A stretch of DNA of 64,000 bases. Origin: Nitrospirota bacterium. Its GTDB lineage: Bacteria > Nitrospirota > UBA9217. Numbering within the stretch: position 1 is the first letter of the stretch; every line of letters starts with the position of its first letter. Position numbers and translations under genes: made by a program. Positions 4,651-26,099 of the stretch are shown piece by piece. The stretch is taken from NCBI GenBank assembly GCA_963796285.1, contig CAWCKW010000012.1:1760001-1824000 (forward strand), given 5' to 3'. The notes under the pieces are model-generated. The model made no database searches and had not been told where the DNA came from. It was given only the letters and a program-made list of their open reading frames with translations.

Positions 4651-4724
4651 TGGTTCGGGGACAGGGATTCGAACCCCGATAAAAGGCTTCAAAGGCCTCT
4701 GTCCTACCATTAGACGATCCCCGA
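4651..4724 (-). tRNA. tRNA-Gln(TTG)
   Basis: TCGGGGATCGTCTAATGGTAGGACAGAGGCCTTTGAAGCCTTTTATCGGGGTTCGAATCCCTGTCCCCGAACCA: cloverleaf, TTG anticodon, GTTCGAATC T-loop, encoded CCA; typical position upstream of prs. Confidence 0.96.
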
Positions 4725-18795: not shown

Positions 18796-20695
18796 CTATT
18801 TAAGCTCCATGACGGTATCACCCTCTGCGCTGAGCGAAGGGTTGGAGGTGAACAGGATGACCTGGGTCTTCGCACCAAGACCACGAAGGACCTGGCATGC
18901 GGCCTTCTGCCTCGCCGGATCCAAGTCCGCGAGGGGGTCGTCCAATATGAACGGAAGACGTCGTTTTCCGGCAAGCGCCTCGACAAGACCGGTCCTGAGA
19001 CAAAAGTATATCAAGCTTTTGGTACCGTGGCTCAGTCCCGAATAGTCCATTGCCGAGTCGTCTTTGGCATGCACGACGGGCCCGCCTTCATGGCCGGCCT
19101 CGATCCTAATATACTTGCCCGCGGTAATTGCAGCAAGGTTCCTCTGGGCCGCCGCCTCAACCGCCGGGATCAGCGTCTCCATCTCGATCCCTCCGATCCT
19201 GCTCGCGATGCCGATCTCTTCGAGAAACCCACCCCTGCCGCCCGCAATTGAGTCCGGGGAAAAAGCCGGCAGTTCTTGCGGCTCGGCGCCAAAATCCCAC
19301 GACACCCCGGCTGACGCAGCGGATGCCTCGGAGTCCAGCCGTTCGATATCCTGCCGGATACTGTACGTATCTATGTTATTCTGGGCGACCGCCAGCGCGG
19401 CTTTTTCCAGTTCCGCTGCCTCCAGCTGGCGTTGCTCATGCTGCTGCTGCAGATTTTCCAGGGTCAGATCTCCAAGGCTCCGCTGTCGTTGCTCTCCAAG
19501 ATCAGCCCCAAGGGAGAAAAAATAGCGGTAATTCTCGGCCTTTTCTTTGAGCTCGGCCGGTGACGAGGCGCGTGTCGAGCGAAGTGCGGCCGTTATGGTC
19601 GCCCCTTCCTGCTGAAAACGTTTTTCAAGTTCAGCAAGCGCTTTCTTCAGGTCTTCCTCTTCCCGTAACAAGTTTTTGCGCCGCACGTTCTTCCGGGAAT
19701 CGTTGTACCACGCTACGGCCATCAGTATAAGTGAAAGGAGGACGCCGAGGGGAAAGAGGAGTTTCAGGTCCTCCGTGAGCACGAACACACCGGCCAGGAT
19801 CGAGATGACTCCCACCGCCACTCCGGCGATGAACAACTTTTCGGCAAAAAATTCCCGGGTCGGTATCGCCGCACGCTGACTCTTGACCCCTTCAATCTGC
19901 TTGTTGAGTTCTTCGGCATCGACCAGCTTCTGGCCCTGACGCCGCTCATAGTCGTCAATAAGCCCCGCAAGGTCCTCGGGCAGTCCCTCGTATCCCTTGA
20001 GCGACGGCAAGCGTTGACCCTATCTCGGCCTTCTTCCTCTCGATCTCTTCAAGGGAGCCAATTTTTTTCTCGATCTCTTCCAGCGCGAGTTTGGCTGACT
20101 GGTACTTGTAATCGGCATCCGCGGCCTCTTCCGCTTTGCGAAGGGTCTCATGGAGTTCGGCAAGGCGCTCCCTGTCTGCGGAGGACTTCACCCCCGCAGG
20201 CGGACCAAGCAAACTCGGCGCCGGCTGCGGCGCTGCGGCCGAAGCGAGTGATCCCGTTCGGGCCGCATGATGCTCCCGCTGGAATATAAAAATTCTGGCA
20301 AAATCGTCCTCGGACATACCGGCGGTCATTCCGGCCATAAACTGCGCCGCGCTGTCCCAGTCCTTGTGAAGAAGGTCGAAGTCCCTGCTCGTCGCGTTGT
20401 ATTTGGAAAGGTTCACAGCGCGTTTTGAGAAATCCTGGATAATGCGGTAGTAGGTCCCTTCATCGGAACTTATCACAAGTGCCGCACGCGAGGCATCGGG
20501 CGCCTGTTTTGATATCAGCGTTGCGAGAAGTACTGTCTGGTTGCTTGGAAAAAGCAGACGCTGCAGGGAGTCTGCCGCCGTGGTCTTGCCCGCTTCATTG
20601 CCCGCAACGACGAAATTCAACCCGCCCTTGAATCGCAGGCGGGCAAGTTCCCGAATCCCACGTACACCCTGAAGAACAAGCTCCACCAGGAACAT
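18796..20695 (-). CDS. YhaN/Rad50-like coiled-coil ABC-type ATPase with two membrane segments, frameshift near 20010
   Basis: N-terminal Walker A GNEAGKTT; C-terminal LSHGTK signature, ILDDPLADLD Walker B and QVILFT; hydrophobic hairpin within the coiled coil. Confidence 0.72.
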
Positions 20696-20771
20696 AAATA
20701 AGGCCCCTTTCCTCAATTAATTTGGTACTATAACGCAAGTGGCTAAAGTTGCAACAGGGAAAACTTCTCCG

Positions 20772-22298
20772 TCACAGCATCTCCAGCGCCTTCTTGAGCG
20801 CTTCGGCCTTCTGGAGGGTCTCGAAATATTCCTGCTCGGGAACGGAATCCGCAACGATCCCGGCCCCGACCTGAATGTGTGCCATACCGTCCTTTACCAC
20901 GAACGTCCTGATGATGATGTTCAGGTCCATGTCGCCGGCGTTCGACAGGTATCCGATGGAACCGGTATAAGGTCCGCGCGCCACGGGTTCAAGTTCATCG
21001 ATGATCTCCATGCACCGAACCTTGGGCACGCCGGTGATCGTCCCTCCCGGGAAAACGGCACGCACCAGGTCGAAGGCGTCCCGCCCCGGCGCCAGCACCC
21101 CCCTGACATTCGAGACGATATGAATAACATGGGAGTAATCCTCCACCACCATCATTTCATCGACCTGGACCGTACCGTACTCGCACACCCTGCCGAGGTC
21201 GTTCCGCTCGAGATCGAGCAGCATGATGTGTTCCGCCCGCTCCTTTTCGTTCATCAGGAGCTCCGCGGAAAGCGCGCTCGTTTCCGCGCCATTCCTTCCC
21301 CTTCTGCGAGTACCCGCTATCGGCCTCGTATCGGCGATATTTCTGTGGAGGCGAACCAGACGCTCGGGGGAAGAACTCACGAGCTGCAGGTCGCCGAAAT
21401 CGAGGTACGCTGCAAAGGGCGACGGATTGATGGTCCGCAGGATCTTATATAAACGAAGCGGGTCCGCATTGTTCATCGATGTCGAGAGCCGCTGGGACAG
21501 GTTCGCCTGATAGATGTCCCCTGCCGCGATATATTCCTTGCATTTCACGACCATTGACTCGAACTCGTCTTTCGTCATATTCGGTGTGAGGCTGAAACGC
21601 TGTTGAGCGTTTTTTTCAGGGAACAGTACGTCGCTCGTGTTGTCCTTTGCCGCGAACTTCGAACCCAGGGCCAAAAGCCTTGCCGCGGCCTCATCATAGA
21701 GCCTGCCCCACTGGTCCGGTTCCGGTTTCCGGAAGCCCATCTCCTGCTCCCGGGCGCCCGGATTGACGATCACCCACGCCTTGTCCAGGATATGATCAAA
21801 GGCAATTACCATATCCACAAACACGAAATACGCCTCGGGAATGTCGATATCGACCGGCGCCCGGCGCGGTAGTTTCTCGATCTGGTGCGCAAAATCGTAG
21901 GAAAAGAACCCCACAGCCCCTCCGGTGAAAGGCGGCAGACCGTCGGTCCGCGTTGTCCGGTAATTGGCAAGAAGCTCACGCAGTTTCACAAGCGGCTTCC
22001 GGTTCATGGACGCGCGCCTGCCGTATTTGCCCAAAGGCGTAGACGGCAGGCTGAGTTCCACGACATCCCCGCGGGACTTGAAAATAAGGTAGGGGTCCGC
22101 CGTAACAAACGAATACCGCCCGATCCTGTCGTTCATCCGTGCGCTTTCGAGAAGCACAGGATAGCCTTCCCCTCTGAGCGCCTCAAGCGCCGCAAGCGGT
22201 GTGAGCCCCGGCAGGTCGAGCTCGGCGGAAAGAGGTAGTATCTTCCCGGATTGAAGGGCTTCGAGGAATTCGTTTTTTGAGGGCTTGATCGTATCCAT
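20772..22298 (-). CDS. Anthranilate synthase / aminodeoxychorismate synthase component I family
   Basis: LLES, GGAVGFFSYD, AGDIYQANLS, SSSPE, RPIAGT, KERAEH.ML.DLERNDLG, FPGGTITGVPK; TrpE vs PabB not resolved. Confidence 0.92.
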   Translation of the reverse strand: MDTIKPSKNEFLEALQSGKILPLSAELDLPGLTPLAALEALRGEGYPVLLESARMNDRIGRYSFVTADPYLIFKSRGDVVELSLPSTPLGKYGRRASMNRKPLVKLRELLANYRTTRTDGLPPFTGGAVGFFSYDFAHQIEKLPRRAPVDIDIPEAYFVFVDMVIAFDHILDKAWVIVNPGAREQEMGFRKPEPDQWGRLYDEAAARLLALGSKFAAKDNTSDVLFPEKNAQQRFSLTPNMTKDEFESMVVKCKEYIAAGDIYQANLSQRLSTSMNNADPLRLYKILRTINPSPFAAYLDFGDLQLVSSSPERLVRLHRNIADTRPIAGTRRRGRNGAETSALSAELLMNEKERAEHIMLLDLERNDLGRVCEYGTVQVDEMMVVEDYSHVIHIVSNVRGVLAPGRDAFDLVRAVFPGGTITGVPKVRCMEIIDELEPVARGPYTGSIGYLSNAGDMDLNIIIRTFVVKDGMAHIQVGAGIVADSVPEQEYFETLQKAEALKKALEML

Positions 22299-22382
22299 GG
22301 AAAGGTGGGGAAATTCTAAAGGCAATTCAGACGCGGGTCAAGATAATTCTCGAAAAAAAATTCCGCACAGTGGCGCAGAAAG

Positions 22383-22391
22383 TGGTATATT
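22383..22391 (+). promoter_or_regulatory. Extended -10 element (TGnTATATT)
   Basis: tggtatatt about 45 nt upstream of the structured RNA candidate; no good -35. Confidence 0.45.
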
Positions 22392-22436
22392 ATAAATGAA
22401 TAAAGAATCATTGGTCTTTCTAAAAAAGGTACATTG

Positions 22437-22751
22437 GGCGTTGCCGGACCATCACCGACTAGGTGTAGAGATGATAACCCGTTTTGAGGGGAATCAAGCA
22501 CCGTGCTGGATGGAGAGCCGAGACCAGAAAGAAGGCTGCAAGTTGAGCTGTCGTTCACTGGTTGTTTCATAGGCTGCTGTAAAGCACGGAAGAGCCGAAA
22601 GCCCCGAAGCCGAAGGAGATGGCGGGAAGAAAGGTACAATGAGCTTCACAGGGTCTGCTGAGCAGAGCCATAGAAGCACCCATTGGAATCCCCGCAGAGG
22701 CTCCCCGGCTCAACGGAATATCAGTAACGGTCCGCAGGCAACGCCTTTTTT
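22437..22751 (+). ncRNA. Candidate large structured non-coding RNA (~310 nt), family not recognised
   Basis: Ends pair (GGCGTTGCC 22437-45 / GGCAACGCC 22737-45; GGACC/GGTCC), with several nested internal helices and a trailing U-tract; no credible ORF. Confidence 0.65.
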
Positions 22752-22876
22752 ATTTCTCAAAGTATCCACTGCAGTAACCTCGCCCCCTATACGGAAATCG
22801 TCTCTATCGCACACTATCTTCCTCTCGACAAAATAGAAAAAATAATTTAAACTGCTTCTTCATAAGGAGACCAGGT

Positions 22877-23269
22877 ATGAACCATGCCATGGACGTTAAG
22901 ATCTATTACGAGGACACGGATTGCGGCGGAGTTGTGTACTACGCCAACTATCTTCGCTATATGGAACGGGCGCGGACCGAGTACCTGGCATCCAGGGGCT
23001 ACGAGGTCAAAAAACTGATGGACGAGGGCACGATCTTCATGGTGCTCCGCGTCGAGATCGACTACAGATCTCCGGCACGGTACGGCGATACGATCGAGAT
23101 CGAGACCAGGGTGTCGGAGGTCTCGCGCGTCACCATGATCTTTCATCACACCATGAAGGAAAAAACATCGGGCAGGGTGTTCGTTGAGTGCATGGCCAAG
23201 CTTGTCTACGTAGACCCCACTGGCAGACCCAAGCGCCTGCCTGACGAGTATGTGGAAAAAGTGAAGTGA
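22877..23269 (+). CDS. YbgC/FadM-family acyl-CoA thioesterase
   Basis: IYYEDTDCGGVVYYANYLRYMERARTE. Confidence 0.9.
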   Translation: MNHAMDVKIYYEDTDCGGVVYYANYLRYMERARTEYLASRGYEVKKLMDEGTIFMVLRVEIDYRSPARYGDTIEIETRVSEVSRVTMIFHHTMKEKTSGRVFVECMAKLVYVDPTGRPKRLPDEYVEKVK

Positions 23270-23384
23270 CGTTGTCTCTCGCAATGGCCAAGAAGAGGGC
23301 CACATTGTGACGCAAGGGACGAGAAGTTGTTAAACCAAAGCCTCATCCTCTTCTGTTCGGGCATTGCGAATAAAAATACTTGTC

Positions 23385-24983: not shown

Positions 24984-26099
24984 ATGCCGATCATTAAACA
25001 CATACCCACGATTGTCATATTGATCGCCCTCCACCAGTCCCCGTTCGCCTGGGCGGAAGGTGAAGATACGTCCCCTCCGACGTCGCCCCCTCAGCAAAAT
25101 GGAGTGCAGCTTTTGCGGGAACAGCCTTCGGAAGAAGCGACACCGTATTCGTCGGCGCCGCTTTTCGAAAAAATACTATCATCGCCAACGGATACATTGT
25201 CGATCCCGCAAGAAGACGGCAAGGAATTGGGTTTGGTGGATATGCTTCACCACGAAATTTCCCAGAGACTTCTAACGACCGCAGTCTGGCTCGATTCGTT
25301 TTTCGAAGACGAACGGGTGGTGAAAGAGGAAAACCATTCGTACATACGGGCCCGCTATGATGTCTTTCAGGAAGAGAGGGCCAGGGCGACGTACAGAGGA
25401 CCAACCTTCAATGTACGTCTGGCGCTCCCCCAATTAGAGCATAAAGCGCACCTCGTCGTCTCGGCCGAGTCGCCCGAACCTGCCACAACCACCCCTGCTC
25501 CGGCGGGTACCAGCAGCAGCAACCGGATCTCGCCCACCGATGAGCGGAATGTTACCACGGCGCTCAATTACATTCTCCGGGCCACCGAGGAGCAGAGTTC
25601 CATTGTGAGGACCGGCGCGCAGTTCAGTCATGGGTCGCCCGTACTGTTCATCGCGCCGCGGTACCGGCATTTTATCCCGCTTACCACGTGGGATTTCCGG
25701 TTCACCCAGGAGGCTGTTTGGAAGACAGACACCAAGTGGCAGATGGACACACTCTTCGATCTCGAGCGGCAGCTCCCGCACGGGTTTTTTTTTCGGACGA
25801 GCGCCGGCGGGACTTGGATAGATGGCACCAATGGTTATTTCTACAGCCTCAATTTCTCGCTGCGCCAGATGATCGATCCAAAGCACGCTCTGGACTACGC
25901 GTGGATCAACAGCTACCAAACAAGACCGGTCTACGAACTGGTGGAAATCCTCGTCAGTATCCGGTACCGCCAGAACCTCTGGAGGGATTGGTTCTTCTTC
26001 GAGGTGGCCCCCCAGTTACGGTTCCCCCGGTCCGGAAACTTCGACGGCATTCCCGGGATCCTGTTCAGATTTGAAATGTATTTCGGGCAAAAGGCATAG
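24984..26099 (+). CDS. Secreted protein, probable outer-membrane beta-barrel
   Basis: Signal peptide (..FAWA), alternating aromatic beta-strands, ends RFEMYFGQKA. Confidence 0.6.
   Translation: MPIIKHIPTIVILIALHQSPFAWAEGEDTSPPTSPPQQNGVQLLREQPSEEATPYSSAPLFEKILSSPTDTLSIPQEDGKELGLVDMLHHEISQRLLTTAVWLDSFFEDERVVKEENHSYIRARYDVFQEERARATYRGPTFNVRLALPQLEHKAHLVVSAESPEPATTTPAPAGTSSSNRISPTDERNVTTALNYILRATEEQSSIVRTGAQFSHGSPVLFIAPRYRHFIPLTTWDFRFTQEAVWKTDTKWQMDTLFDLERQLPHGFFFRTSAGGTWIDGTNGYFYSLNFSLRQMIDPKHALDYAWINSYQTRPVYELVEILVSIRYRQNLWRDWFFFEVAPQLRFPRSGNFDGIPGILFRFEMYFGQKA

What the first reader, a model, noticed from the sequence alone, without database searches (positions are those of the whole stretch)
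22383..22751. Unrecognised ~310-nt highly structured RNA between the trpE/pabB-like and ybgC-like genes
Seen: the ORF-free gap folds as nested helices. These are GGCGTTGCC(22437-45)/GGCAACGCC(22737-45), GGACC(22446-50)/GGTCC(22729-33), a small hairpin CACC/GGTG (22453-65), TGATA(22472-76)/TATCA(22719-23), CCGTT(22479-83)/AACGG(22712-16) and GGGGA/TCCCC. They enclose three arms: CCGTGCT(22501-07)/AGCACGG(22583-89), CCC..GCC/GGC.GGG (22603-26), and CAATG..GCTTC..TCTGC/GCAGA..GAAGC..CATTG (22637-85). GAGCCG (22515, 22592) can alternatively pair with CGGCTC (22706-11), which could be a pseudoknot or a switch. An extended -10 box precedes it and a U-tract directly follows the closing helix, as expected for a stand-alone transcript. 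I do not see the signatures of RNase P, tmRNA, SRP, 6S, T-box or common riboswitches. Inference: a novel large ncRNA, ribozyme or cis-regulator.
Basis: partly seen in the sequence, partly recalled or inferred. Interest (0 to 1): 0.85.

Follow-up and report, generated by a model that had tools for sequence, protein, structure and literature searches.

The report
New abundant structured RNA in Nitrospirota
This is a folded RNA gene of about 316 bases, absent from the RNA family catalogue, that nearly every genome of one uncultured Nitrospirota class carries and that turns up at high depth in environmental RNA data, although its job is still unknown.

Summary
The finding is real. Window 22437-22752 (+) encodes a ~316-nt RNA whose 5' and 3' ends pair in a 9-bp helix followed by a U-tract. 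It folds better than shuffles (z -4.56). It has no Rfam 15 match.

A covariance model found it in 62 of 64 genomes of one Nitrospirota class, including 32 of 32 high-quality ones. It found nothing in 113 genomes of 23 other families.

Covariation across 86 full-length copies is strong: 85 of 97 pairs show double changes, and 0 of 500 shuffles reach any of the five measures. G-U excess fixes the + strand.

There are two forms:
- Type A (61 copies) lies divergent from trpE in 59 of 61 loci. It has an extended -10 box, a ~57-nt leader and a U-tract.
- Type B (25 copies) is dispersed. Its promoter abuts the first helix and it has its own hairpin terminator.

In three metatranscriptomes from three studies, contigs cover only the RNA, at depths of hundreds to about 200,000, against 0-13 on the flanks.

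RNase P, SRP, 6S and tmRNA genes lie elsewhere in the genome.

Function is unknown. My best guess is a stable trans-acting RNA that binds a protein or is catalytic.

The parts
22383..22391 (+). Extended -10 promoter of the RNA gene (TG 22383-84, TATATT 22386-91). The transcription start was not mapped.
   Evidence: Read. A TG-n-TATAnT-like motif lies upstream of 60 of 61 type A copies, 43-94 nt (median 57) before the first helix. It also lies upstream of 21 of 25 type B copies, median 8 nt before it.
22392..22436 (+). 5' leader of the type A precursor, holding the conserved motif GGTCTTT (22413-22419). Probably removed from the mature RNA (inferred).
   Evidence: The motif G[AGT]TC[TG]TT is present in 54 of 61 type A leaders, starting 24-50 nt (median 28) before P1, and in 3 of 25 type B. 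RNA-library contigs of X16, X17 and X19 give depth 0 in bin 22361-22411. One X17 contig begins at 22436. This is a weak hint, because these are contigs and not reads.
22437..22745 (+). Body of the structured RNA, from the first to the last base of the closing helix P1.
   Evidence: R1 scores 325.5 bits over 22437-22752. Covariation. G-U excess.
22437..22445 (+). P1 5' strand GGCGTTGCC, pairing with 22737-22745 GGCAACGCC.
   Evidence: Fourteen of the fifteen columns that are >=97% invariant across all 86 copies lie in P1; the fifteenth is one C of P5. Eight of the nine P1 pairs show no change on both sides.
22446..22450 (+). P2 GGACC, pairing with 22729-22733 GGTCC.
   Evidence: All 5 pairs show changes on both sides and 95.7% of cells pair. 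The second pair reads AU in 46 copies, GC in 32 and GU in 4.
22453..22465 (+). P3 hairpin CACC/GGTG. The loop is GACUA here and a GAGA-type tetraloop in many type B copies.
   Evidence: 95.2% of cells pair and 3 of 4 pairs show double changes. Loop sequences seen.
22472..22476 (+). P4 TGATA, pairing with 22719-22723 TATCA.
   Evidence: 71.1% of cells pair and all 4 scored pairs show double changes. This helix is not part of model R1, so the alignment is not fitted to it.
22479..22483 (+). P5 CCGTT, pairing with 22712-22716 AACGG.
   Evidence: 92.5% of cells pair. In L106 and L108 the whole helix is replaced by CAGGCU/AGCCUG.
22488..22491 (+). P6 GGGG, pairing with 22602-22605 CCCC. It closes the 5' domain.
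   Evidence: 94% of cells pair in type A and 93% in type B, with GC to AU/UA changes.
22498..22595 (+). 5' domain: P7 (22498-99/22594-95), P8 (22501-07/22583-89), P9 (22522-27/22558-63) and the P10 hairpin (22534-39/22547-52) with the loop AAGUUGA.
   Evidence: Helices 8, 9 and 13-15: 98.2% paired for P7, 95.8% for P9 and 98.0% for the P10 tip. The loop AAGUUGA is conserved in type A, and three of its positions are >=97% invariant there.
22608..22710 (+). 3' domain: P11 (22608-12/22706-10), inner helices 22615-18/22701-04 and 22622-26/22691-95, P13 (22643-47/22673-77) and the P14 hairpin (22651-58/22662-69).
   Evidence: P11 is 79-87% paired, all 5 pairs show double changes, and it is not in model R1. 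P13 is 94.3% paired and P14 97.1%. P11 extends to 8-9 covarying pairs in other genera.
22746..22751 (+). U-tract directly after P1. Likely the 3' end of the type A transcript, with P1 plus the U-run acting as an intrinsic terminator (inferred).
   Evidence: A run of >=5 T directly follows P1 in 56 of 61 type A copies. Of these, 41 were counted by script and 15 were rows my pattern missed, read by eye. The same holds in 3 of 25 type B. RNA-library contigs of X16 and X17 give depth 0 from 22769 on.
20772..22298 (-). Conserved divergent neighbour: an anthranilate synthase component I-like gene (trpE-like). Its promoter-like site is TTGACC..TAGAAT at 22341-22313.
   Evidence: Pfam Chorismate_bind and Anth_synt_I_N. 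NCBIfam trpE_most scores 489.2 bits, below the cut-off of 517.7. It lies divergent from 59 of 61 type A copies. Promoter-like site.

Best explanation
Window 22437-22752 (+) is the gene of a stable, highly structured RNA of about 316 nt that acts on its own and not as part of an mRNA.

Shown:
- It belongs to a family confined, among the genomes searched, to one class-level lineage of Nitrospirota.
- Its secondary structure is kept by compensatory changes.
- It is read from the + strand.
- It appears in RNA libraries at depths far above its neighbours.

The fold is a long closing stack (P1, P2, P4, P5, with a small capped hairpin P3). This opens into two multi-helix domains.

Inferred:
- Type A copies, such as this one, are transcribed from an extended -10 promoter about 57 nt upstream.
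- They lose the leader by processing at or near the conserved GAUCUUU motif.
- They end at P1 plus the U-tract.
- Type B copies start at P1 and end at a separate hairpin terminator.

The nearly invariant sequence of P1 in both types, against a covarying interior, suggests that the paired ends are a recognition site for a protein or a processing enzyme.

My best guess for function is a trans-acting RNA of housekeeping grade that works as the RNA part of a ribonucleoprotein. Less likely, it is a ribozyme. I put about 0.9 on the identity part (real, new, stand-alone structured RNA) and about 0.35 on the protein-partner mechanism.
For: Structure:
- z -4.56 against shuffles.
- RNAalifold on 22 sequences gives 58 pairs, 28 of them with compensatory changes.
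- On 86 copies and 97 pairs, 81.2% of cells pair against 74.2 +/- 0.2 in shuffles. 85 pairs have double changes against 59.3 +/- 2.7. The covariation score is 0.267 against 0.160. 0 of 500 shuffles reach any measure. Slid controls score 0.048-0.098.

Strand:
- 387 G-U/U-G cells against 68 A-C/C-A in the 56 best pairs.

Distribution:
- 62 of 64 genomes of the order, which is also the class and a single family. This includes 32 of 32 high-quality genomes and 19 of 19 genera. The two misses are 68% and 71% complete.
- 0 of 113 genomes in 23 other families.
- 0 full-length hits in 33 genomes of 14 other families with laxer filters.

Stand-alone gene:
- Promoter and terminator features.
- Variable downstream genes.

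Expression:
- In X16, X17 and X19 (three studies) contigs cover only bins 22412-22768. Peak word depths are 211,919, 358.8 and 58,585, against 0-12.7 on the flanks.

Not a known RNA:
-.

P1 invariance:
-.
Against: - No partner protein was found. No protein family recurs within 3 kb of the type B copies; the largest cluster is 4 ORFs from 3 loci.
- No unpaired position is >=97% invariant across both types. That is less than one might expect for a ribozyme core or a ligand pocket.
- The expression data are assembled contigs. Depths are summed over organisms, and neither ends nor strand can be read from them (notes). In X15 a single 2277-nt contig at depth 11 spans the RNA and both neighbours, which looks like DNA.
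- The simple scan flagged neither the promoter nor the terminator on the + strand. Both rest on comparison with relatives.
- The strict linkage to trpE is not explained by this reading.
Confidence: 0.55

Rival explanations
1. It is a regulator tied to tryptophan synthesis. Either the RNA acts on trpE expression in trans, or its very active promoter is coupled to the back-to-back trpE promoter, for example through a shared regulator site or local supercoiling.
For: - A trpE-like gene lies divergent from 59 of 61 type A copies across 19 genera. Its start is mostly 107-175 nt from P1, while the downstream neighbour changes.
- The trpE-side block GGTCAAGA(C/T)AATTCT, which holds a -35-like TTGACC, is conserved in many loci.
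Against: - Type B copies keep the fold but sit away from trpE; 3 of 25 are near it, all in tandem arrays.
- No T-box or other known amino-acid leader family matches.
- No R1 match lies beside the trpE orthologues in 20 loci of other Nitrospirota families.
- Conserved synteny of stable RNA genes with unrelated housekeeping genes has precedent: ssrS with ygfA in enterobacteria (recalled, not tested here).
Confidence: 0.15
2. It is a ribozyme. It would be a large RNA that processes itself or acts on another substrate, and its compact multi-domain fold would build an active site.
For: - Its size and branched, conserved architecture, with a capped hairpin that could dock (GNRA-type loop in many type B copies).
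- It is present in nearly every genome of the class.
- A contig in X19 joins position 22751 to 22437 through 20 letters at depth 5131. Joined ends, whether a circle or a ligated form, would produce this.
Against: - No unpaired nucleotide is >=97% invariant across both types.
- No known ribozyme family matches.
- The joining contig can equally come from a close tandem array. Arrays with 80-173 nt spacers exist in G009, G013 and G023. It could also come from the assembly graph.
Confidence: 0.12
3. It is a second 6S-like or sponge RNA that titrates RNA polymerase or a global RNA-binding protein.
For: - High apparent abundance.
- Paired 5' and 3' ends, its own strong promoter, and several paralogues.
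- One type B copy gave a weak CsrC hit: E 0.94, 16.7 bits against a gathering score of 61.
Against: - A canonical 6S gene is present elsewhere at 103.5 bits.
- The fold is branched, not a rod with a central bubble.
- The hairpin loops carry no GGA motifs (sequence read).
- The CsrC hit is far below threshold and occurs in 1 of 16 loci.
Confidence: 0.08
4. It is a cis-acting leader or riboswitch of the downstream thioesterase gene, with P1 plus the U-tract as the regulated terminator.
For: - P1 is followed directly by a U-run in 56 of 61 type A copies.
- A YbgC-type thioesterase and a methyltransferase follow on the same strand in about 23 of 61 loci.
Against: - In the other loci the next gene differs or lies on the opposite strand.
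- The thioesterase has its own promoter-like site at 22825-22853.
- Type B copies have a dedicated terminator and no common downstream gene.
- RNA-library contigs of X16 and X17 stop before 22769.
Confidence: 0.04
5. It is a DNA-level repeat (a miniature inverted-repeat element) bounded by the 9-bp inverted repeats, not an RNA gene.
For: - Invariant terminal inverted repeats.
- Several dispersed and tandem copies in some genomes.
Against: - Compensatory changes and a 387 to 68 excess of G-U over A-C pairs show selection on one RNA strand.
- Promoter and terminator blocks outside the repeats are conserved with the copies.
- The position next to trpE is fixed across 19 genera.
- 0 of 60 pattern matches in viral contigs pass the model.
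Confidence: 0.02

Closest known systems
Large structured bacterial RNAs of unknown or recently emerging function (OLE, ROOL, GOLLD, raiA, HEARO)
   Same: - Several hundred nucleotides long.
- An intricate conserved secondary structure supported by covariation.
- Restricted to a lineage.
- A stand-alone gene with high apparent expression.
- No function deducible from the gene context.
   Different: - None of their Rfam models matches the window or 16 homologous loci.
- The host is a Nitrospirota class.
- It was not found on phage contigs: 0 of 60 pattern matches pass the model.
- No recurring partner genes lie beside it.

The properties of those families are recalled, not tested here.
Housekeeping stable RNAs with paired termini (RNase P RNA, 6S RNA, 4.5S/SRP RNA, tmRNA)
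   Same: - The 5' and 3' ends pair in a terminal helix.
- It is present in nearly every genome of the lineage.
- It has its own promoter.
- A 5' leader is probably removed.
- Depth in RNA libraries is very high.
   Different: - All four are encoded elsewhere in this genome with scores above their Rfam cut-offs.
- None of their models matches here.
- ARAGORN finds no tRNA-like or tmRNA feature.
- This RNA is limited to one class.
Bacterial Y RNAs (partners of the Ro/Rsr protein)
   Same: - A terminal stem formed by both ends whose sequence, and not only its pairing, is conserved.
- A more variable interior.
- Several paralogues per genome.
   Different: - No TROVE (Ro) domain gene was found in this 96% complete genome.
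- The RNA is about three times longer.
- There is no Rfam Y RNA match.

Membership tests
RNase P RNA (RF00010) | Match to the covariance model; one essential copy per genome | tested here: not met
   No match in the window at gathering score or at E <= 10. The genome's copy is at G000:C6:158852-159228, 270.4 bits.
tmRNA (RF00023) | tRNA-like ends plus a tag reading frame; match to the model or to ARAGORN | tested here: not met
   ARAGORN finds 0 genes in 22300-22900. There is no Rfam match. The genome's tmRNA is at C3:54722-55075, 191.8 bits.
SRP RNA (RF00169 and the large bacterial form) | Match to the model, which includes the conserved domain IV hairpin | tested here: not met
   No match. 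The small SRP RNA is at C6:125956-126054, 77.6 bits.
6S RNA (RF00013) | Match to the model; a rod-like helix with a large central bubble | tested here: not met
   No match. The supported fold is branched, with two multi-helix domains. The canonical 6S gene is at C12:1524125-1524304, 103.5 bits.
Bacterial Y RNA | A Ro/Rsr (TROVE domain) protein encoded in the genome, usually nearby | tested here: not met
   PF05731 has 0 matches in G000, which is 96.22% complete. The control genomes Deinococcus and Bacteroides scored.
Bacterial Y RNA | A terminal stem of conserved sequence formed by the 5' and 3' ends | tested here: met
   Fourteen of the fifteen columns >=97% invariant in all 86 copies lie in P1. 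This feature alone does not make it a member.
Riboswitch or other cis-regulatory leader (including T-box) | Sits in the 5' untranslated region of a consistent downstream gene on the same strand | tested here: not met
   Downstream genes and strands vary among the 61 type A loci. Type B copies end in their own terminators in 18 of 25 cases. No Rfam riboswitch or T-box match.
OLE, ROOL, GOLLD, raiA, HEARO and other large RNAs in Rfam 15 | Match to the family's covariance model | tested here: not met
   No such match in the window or in 16 homologous loci at E <= 10.
Miniature inverted-repeat transposable element | Selection at the DNA level only: no strand asymmetry and no compensatory pairing inside; unit bounded by the inverted repeats | tested here: not met
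   85 of 97 pairs show double changes. G-U 387 against A-C 68. Conserved promoter and terminator blocks lie outside the repeats.
Intrinsic (Rho-independent) terminator, as the 3' end of type A | A G+C-rich helix followed directly by a U-run | tested here: met
   P1 (9 bp, 7 of them G-C) is followed by >=5 T in 56 of 61 type A copies. The helix closes a loop of about 290 nt, which is unusual, and the scan cannot see it. Termination itself was not tested.

The most novel reading that the evidence does not exclude
This is the RNA subunit of an unrecognised ribonucleoprotein machine, or a new natural ribozyme, that one whole class of Nitrospirota depends on. It would be a fifth stable RNA of housekeeping grade beside RNase P, SRP, tmRNA and 6S. 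It would have a constitutive form (type A) and a separately regulated isoform (type B). Its invariant paired ends would be a recognition or joining site, and the 3'-to-5' junction contig in one RNA library could then reflect a circular or end-joined mature form.
Probability: 0.2. Interest if true: 0.9.

Novelty: categorically new. Interest (0 to 1): 0.75.

Why it matters
New large, intricately folded bacterial RNAs are rare. Earlier ones (RNase P, the group I and II introns, OLE, ROOL, GOLLD) led to new biochemistry or new RNA architecture.

This one has unusually clean evidence for a case resting on sequence alone:
- It is present in nearly every genome of a class-level lineage.
- It has dozens of compensatory pairs.
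- It has two forms with different transcription signals but the same fold.
- Contigs in RNA libraries of three studies are limited to it.

At about 316 nt it is within reach of in vitro probing and cryo-EM, even though no member of the host lineage appears to be in culture. I base that last point on the record titles, which all name metagenome bins.

It also flags a gap in annotation. Genomes of this lineage would carry an unannotated, highly expressed gene next to trpE.

Tried and rejected
Known families:
- The Rfam gathering scan of the whole window found only a tRNA at 4654-4724.
- The E <= 10 scan of 22250-22900 gave six hits, all far below their cut-offs.
- The E <= 10 scan of 16 homologous loci gave eight hits. 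None recurred, and only a CsrC hit of 16.7 bits lay on an RNA copy.

Y RNA: rejected, because the genome has no TROVE gene.

tRNA or tmRNA: none found.

A kissing contact between the P10 loop GUUGA and UCAAC at 22710-14: no consistent covariation in the 61 type A copies.

A small arginine-rich reading frame on the opposite strand upstream of type B copies: rejected as coding, because the aligned block carries 1-nt insertions and deletions and some copies have stops. The roughly 70-nt block remains unexplained.

Partner proteins by neighbourhood: no family recurs near type B.

Phage origin: 55 and 5 pattern matches in viral contigs, and 0 of 60 pass R1 at E <= 0.1.

Relatives outside the class:
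- 0 of 113 genomes.
- With laxer filters, nothing better than 18.1 bits over 41 nt in 33 genomes.
- 0 matches beside trpE orthologues in 20 loci.
- My stop-to-stop ORF gap measure for those loci was too noisy to use.

MAFFT plus RNAalifold on the 61 type A copies gave a poorer consensus than the model-based alignment, so I did not use it. Mutual information with APC was dominated by the split between type A and type B.

Sequencing runs with small shares that I did not lay (X18, X20, X21) are not used as evidence. X15 looks like DNA carry-over: one contig at depth 11 across everything. Parts without cover in contigs are not evidence of absence.

Literature:
- Searches for 'UBA9217', for Nitrospirota/noncoding RNA/covariation, for large noncoding RNA/metatranscriptome and for Nitrospirae/RNA motif/intergenic/Rfam. 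I saw only the search listings and the starts of abstracts. None describes this RNA.
- Word finds for Nitrospir, trpE, anthranilate (and, depending on the paper, UBA9217 or Leptospirillum and Thermodesulfovibrio) in the main text of PMC11109978 and of two 2026 bioRxiv preprints gave 0 occurrences.

The class name UBA9217 is my inference. One matching record is titled 'isolate UBA9217', and I recall how GTDB forms placeholder names. It was not tested.
Full report
WHAT IS THERE

The gap between a trpE-like gene (20772-22298, - strand) and a YbgC-type thioesterase gene (22877-23269, + strand) holds the element. The gene assignments come from Pfam and NCBIfam. trpE_most scores 489.2 bits against a cut-off of 517.7. 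The YbgC/FadM subfamily scores 107.9 bits against a cut-off of 68.7.

The stretch 22430-22752 folds at -125 kcal/mol on the + strand, against -99.9 +/- 5.5 for 100 dinucleotide shuffles (z -4.56, none as good). The reverse strand also folds well (z -4.03), so energy alone does not give the strand.

NOT A CATALOGUED RNA

A scan of the whole window against Rfam 15 at gathering scores found only a tRNA at 4654-4724. A permissive scan of 22250-22900 gave six hits with E 0.9-9.9, all far below their cut-offs. The same permissive scan of 16 homologous loci gave eight hits. None recurred. Only one lay on a copy of the RNA: CsrC at 16.7 bits against a gathering score of 61.

The genome encodes the usual stable RNAs elsewhere:
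- RNase P RNA, 270.4 bits
- small SRP RNA, 77.6 bits
- 6S RNA, 103.5 bits
- tmRNA, 191.8 bits

ARAGORN finds nothing in the region.

HOMOLOGUES AND DISTRIBUTION

BLASTN against 41 related genomes found the element in 20 of 24 genomes of the same family and in 0 of 16 from other families. The match begins at 22437 in the more distant relatives.

A covariance model (R1, 315 positions) was built from 22 copies. It found the element in 62 of 64 genomes of the order. These include 32 of 32 genomes that are at least 90% complete with at most 5% contamination, and 19 of 19 genera. The two genomes without it are 68% and 71% complete. The order is the only one in its class among the genomes held, and it has a single family (54 of 54 genomes at least 85% complete).

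In a sample of the phylum, 37 of 37 genomes of this family matched, and 0 of 113 genomes from 23 other families matched. With laxer filters, 33 genomes of 14 other families gave nothing better than 18.1 bits over 41 nt, which is a bare hairpin. There was no match beside the trpE orthologues in 20 loci of other families.

An exact-pattern scan of 185,579 species genomes gave 42 stretches. All of them come from records titled as Nitrospirota, Nitrospirae, Nitrospiria or Nitrospiraceae metagenome bins. One of these is 'isolate UBA9217', so I take the lineage to be the GTDB class of that name. This is an inference from recalled naming practice.

Sixty pattern matches in viral contigs all failed the model.

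TWO FORMS

Eighty loci hold 86 full-length copies.

Type A comprises 61 copies that score 140.8-325.5 bits and are 295-342 nt long. The window's copy is one of them. Its features are:
- A trpE homologue lies divergent from 59 of the 61 copies, mostly 107-175 nt from the first helix.
- The downstream gene varies. A thioesterase plus a methyltransferase follows in about 23 loci, a protein of about 415 aa follows in 8, and other genes or the opposite strand follow in the rest.
- An extended -10 box (TGTG-n-TATAnT) lies upstream of 60 of 61 copies, 43-94 nt (median 57) before the first helix.
- A leader motif G(A/G)TCTTT is present in 54 of 61 copies, about 28 nt before the first helix.
- A run of at least five T directly follows the closing helix in 56 of 61 copies. 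Of these, 41 were counted by script and 15 by eye, in rows that my pattern missed.

Type B comprises 25 copies that score 29.3-96.6 bits and are 273-319 nt long. They occur as extra copies in some genomes; for example, R1 matches G009 at five places, type A and type B together. G000 has none. Its features are:
- The same kind of -10 box lies upstream of 21 of 25 copies, and in 15 of those it ends only 6-9 nt before the first helix.
- The U-run after P1 is mostly missing (3 of 25).
- A strong hairpin plus T-run follows within about 90 nt in 18 of 25 copies, against 5 of 61 for type A.
- No protein family recurs within 3 kb.

Tandem arrays occur in G009, G013 and G023.

STRUCTURE

RNAalifold on the first 22 copies gave 58 pairs, 28 of them with compensatory changes.

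On the 86-copy alignment I scored the 97 pairs of the window's minimum-energy fold:

| Measure | Observed | Shuffled |
|---|---|---|
| Cells forming a standard pair | 81.2% | 74.2 +/- 0.2% |
| Pairs with a change on both sides | 85 | 59.3 +/- 2.7 |
| Covariation score | 0.267 | 0.160 +/- 0.003 |

None of 500 shuffles reached any of the five measures. Sliding the partners by 1-3 columns dropped the covariation score to 0.048-0.098.

Two caveats apply. The alignment is fitted to the 58 pairs of R1, and the tested structure was derived from one of the sequences. However, P4, P11 and the inner helices of the 3' domain are not in R1 and still covary. In P11, all 5 pairs show double changes. In other genera P11 grows to 8-9 pairs that change in step, for example AGCUGCGG/CCGCAGCU against AGUUCCGG/CCGGAACU.

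In the 56 pairs that are at least 85% canonical there are 387 G-U or U-G cells against 68 A-C or C-A. This places the RNA on the + strand.

The supported model (coordinates) is:
- P1 22437-45/22737-45
- P2 22446-50/22729-33
- hairpin P3 22453-65
- P4 22472-76/22719-23
- P5 22479-83/22712-16
- a 5' domain closed by P6 22488-91/22602-05
- a 3' domain closed by P11 22608-12/22706-10, ending in the near-palindromic hairpin P13-P14 (22643-77)

- GGGGA/TCCCC
- the local arm at 22603-26
- the GAGCCG/CGGCTC pseudoknot

The only columns at least 97% invariant in all 86 copies are 14 positions of P1 and one C of P5. No unpaired position reaches that level.

EXPRESSION

Fourteen DNA metagenomes (peat, sediment, wetland, soil) hold 37-66% of the sampled words of window 21800-23300. 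Six metatranscriptomes hold 8-19%, where the RNA makes up 21% of the stretch.

I laid the contigs of four RNA runs at 90% likeness or better. In X16, X17 and X19, which come from three studies, cover is confined to bins 22412-22768:

| Run | Peak word depth on the RNA | Depth over the trpE side and bin 22361-22411 | Depth downstream of 22769 |
|---|---|---|---|
| X16 | 211,919 | 0 (4.64 in the outermost bin, 21800-21850) | 0-3.1 |
| X17 | 358.8 | 0 | 0 |
| X19 | 58,585 | 0 | 0-12.7 |

One X17 contig starts at 22436. In X15, one 2277-nt contig at depth 11 spans everything, which looks like DNA.

These are assembled contigs. Depths are summed over related organisms, and they show neither strand nor true ends. 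So I read them as strong evidence that the element is present at high level in RNA libraries, and only as a weak hint about its ends.

One X19 contig joins 22751 to 22437 through 20 letters at depth 5131. A tight tandem array, an end-joined or circular RNA, or an assembly effect could each explain it.

HOW IT MOST LIKELY WORKS

Shown: it is a stand-alone, conserved, structured RNA gene on the + strand, and it is present in RNA libraries.

Inferred:
- Type A is made from the extended -10 promoter with a leader of about 45-60 nt. The leader is removed at or near the conserved motif.
- The transcript ends where P1 is followed by the U-run.
- Type B starts at P1 and ends at its own terminator.

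P1 keeps its sequence in both forms while the interior drifts and compensates. The paired ends therefore look like a sequence-specific recognition site for a protein or a processing enzyme. That points to a ribonucleoprotein (about 0.35).

The rivals are:
- a link to tryptophan synthesis through the fixed divergent trpE promoter (0.15)
- a ribozyme (0.12)
- a 6S-like or sponge RNA (0.08)
- a cis leader (0.04)
- a DNA repeat (0.02)

A Y RNA reading fails because no Ro-type gene is present.

COMPARISON AND NOVELTY

In kind it resembles the large structured RNAs of unknown function and the housekeeping stable RNAs with paired ends. It matches none of their models, and the usual housekeeping RNAs are all accounted for in this genome.

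Four literature searches and three in-paper word finds turned up no description.

I rate it a new RNA family, with interest 0.75. The evidence that it is real is unusually strong, and the RNA is of a size that can be studied in vitro. Against that, its function is open and the hosts are uncultured.

Noticed in passing
L072-L076, L078, L080-L082 (about 40-110 nt upstream of type B copies): A block of about 70 nt (ACTAAAGTACTAACAAGGCGATCGTTTCTCGTTTCCCT...) is conserved upstream of the type B promoters in different genomes. A TTGACA lies only 8 nt before the -10 box. Read on the other strand, the block gives an arginine-rich frame, but 1-nt indels and stops argue against coding. It may be a regulator site or another small RNA.
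   Followed up: partly
window 22751 joined to 22437 (run X19): A contig in an RNA library joins the 3' end of the RNA to its 5' end through 20 letters at word depth 5131. Its last 11 letters resemble the leader of type A loci of genus g9. It could be a tight tandem array, an end-joined or circular RNA, or an assembly effect.
   Followed up: no
window 22361-22380 (- strand): A terminator-like hairpin plus T-run on the minus strand lies between the RNA promoter and the trpE promoter. It is not obviously conserved in the other type A loci.
   Followed up: partly
L020 (G009 C90), L107 (G023), L110 (G013): These loci hold tandem arrays of the RNA gene, with spacers of about 80-173 nt. In L020 and L110 each repeat is preceded by its own -10 box. 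G009 has three copies in a row (two type A, one type B) plus two more elsewhere.
   Followed up: partly
window 18796-20716 (- strand): Two overlapping reading frames (18796-20010 and 19955-20716) carry AAA_23 and SMC_N-type ATPase signatures. Together they look like one RecF/RecN/SMC-like gene, either split by a frameshift or truly two genes.
   Followed up: no
G000:C12:1441019-1441843 and second hits in most genomes: In 47 of 61 Nitrospirota genomes searched the trpE-like query matched at two places, the second mostly at 39-46% identity. In G000 the second hit is only a 297-aa open frame at 55% identity to residues 232-507.
   Followed up: no
window 4654-4724 (- strand): A tRNA gene, the only Rfam match above its gathering score in the 64-kb window (64.9 bits).
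   Followed up: no
window 24984-26099 (+ strand): A 371-aa reading frame has a weak hit, below the cut-off, to the red chlorophyll catabolite reductase family (23.5 bits against 24.9).
   Followed up: no
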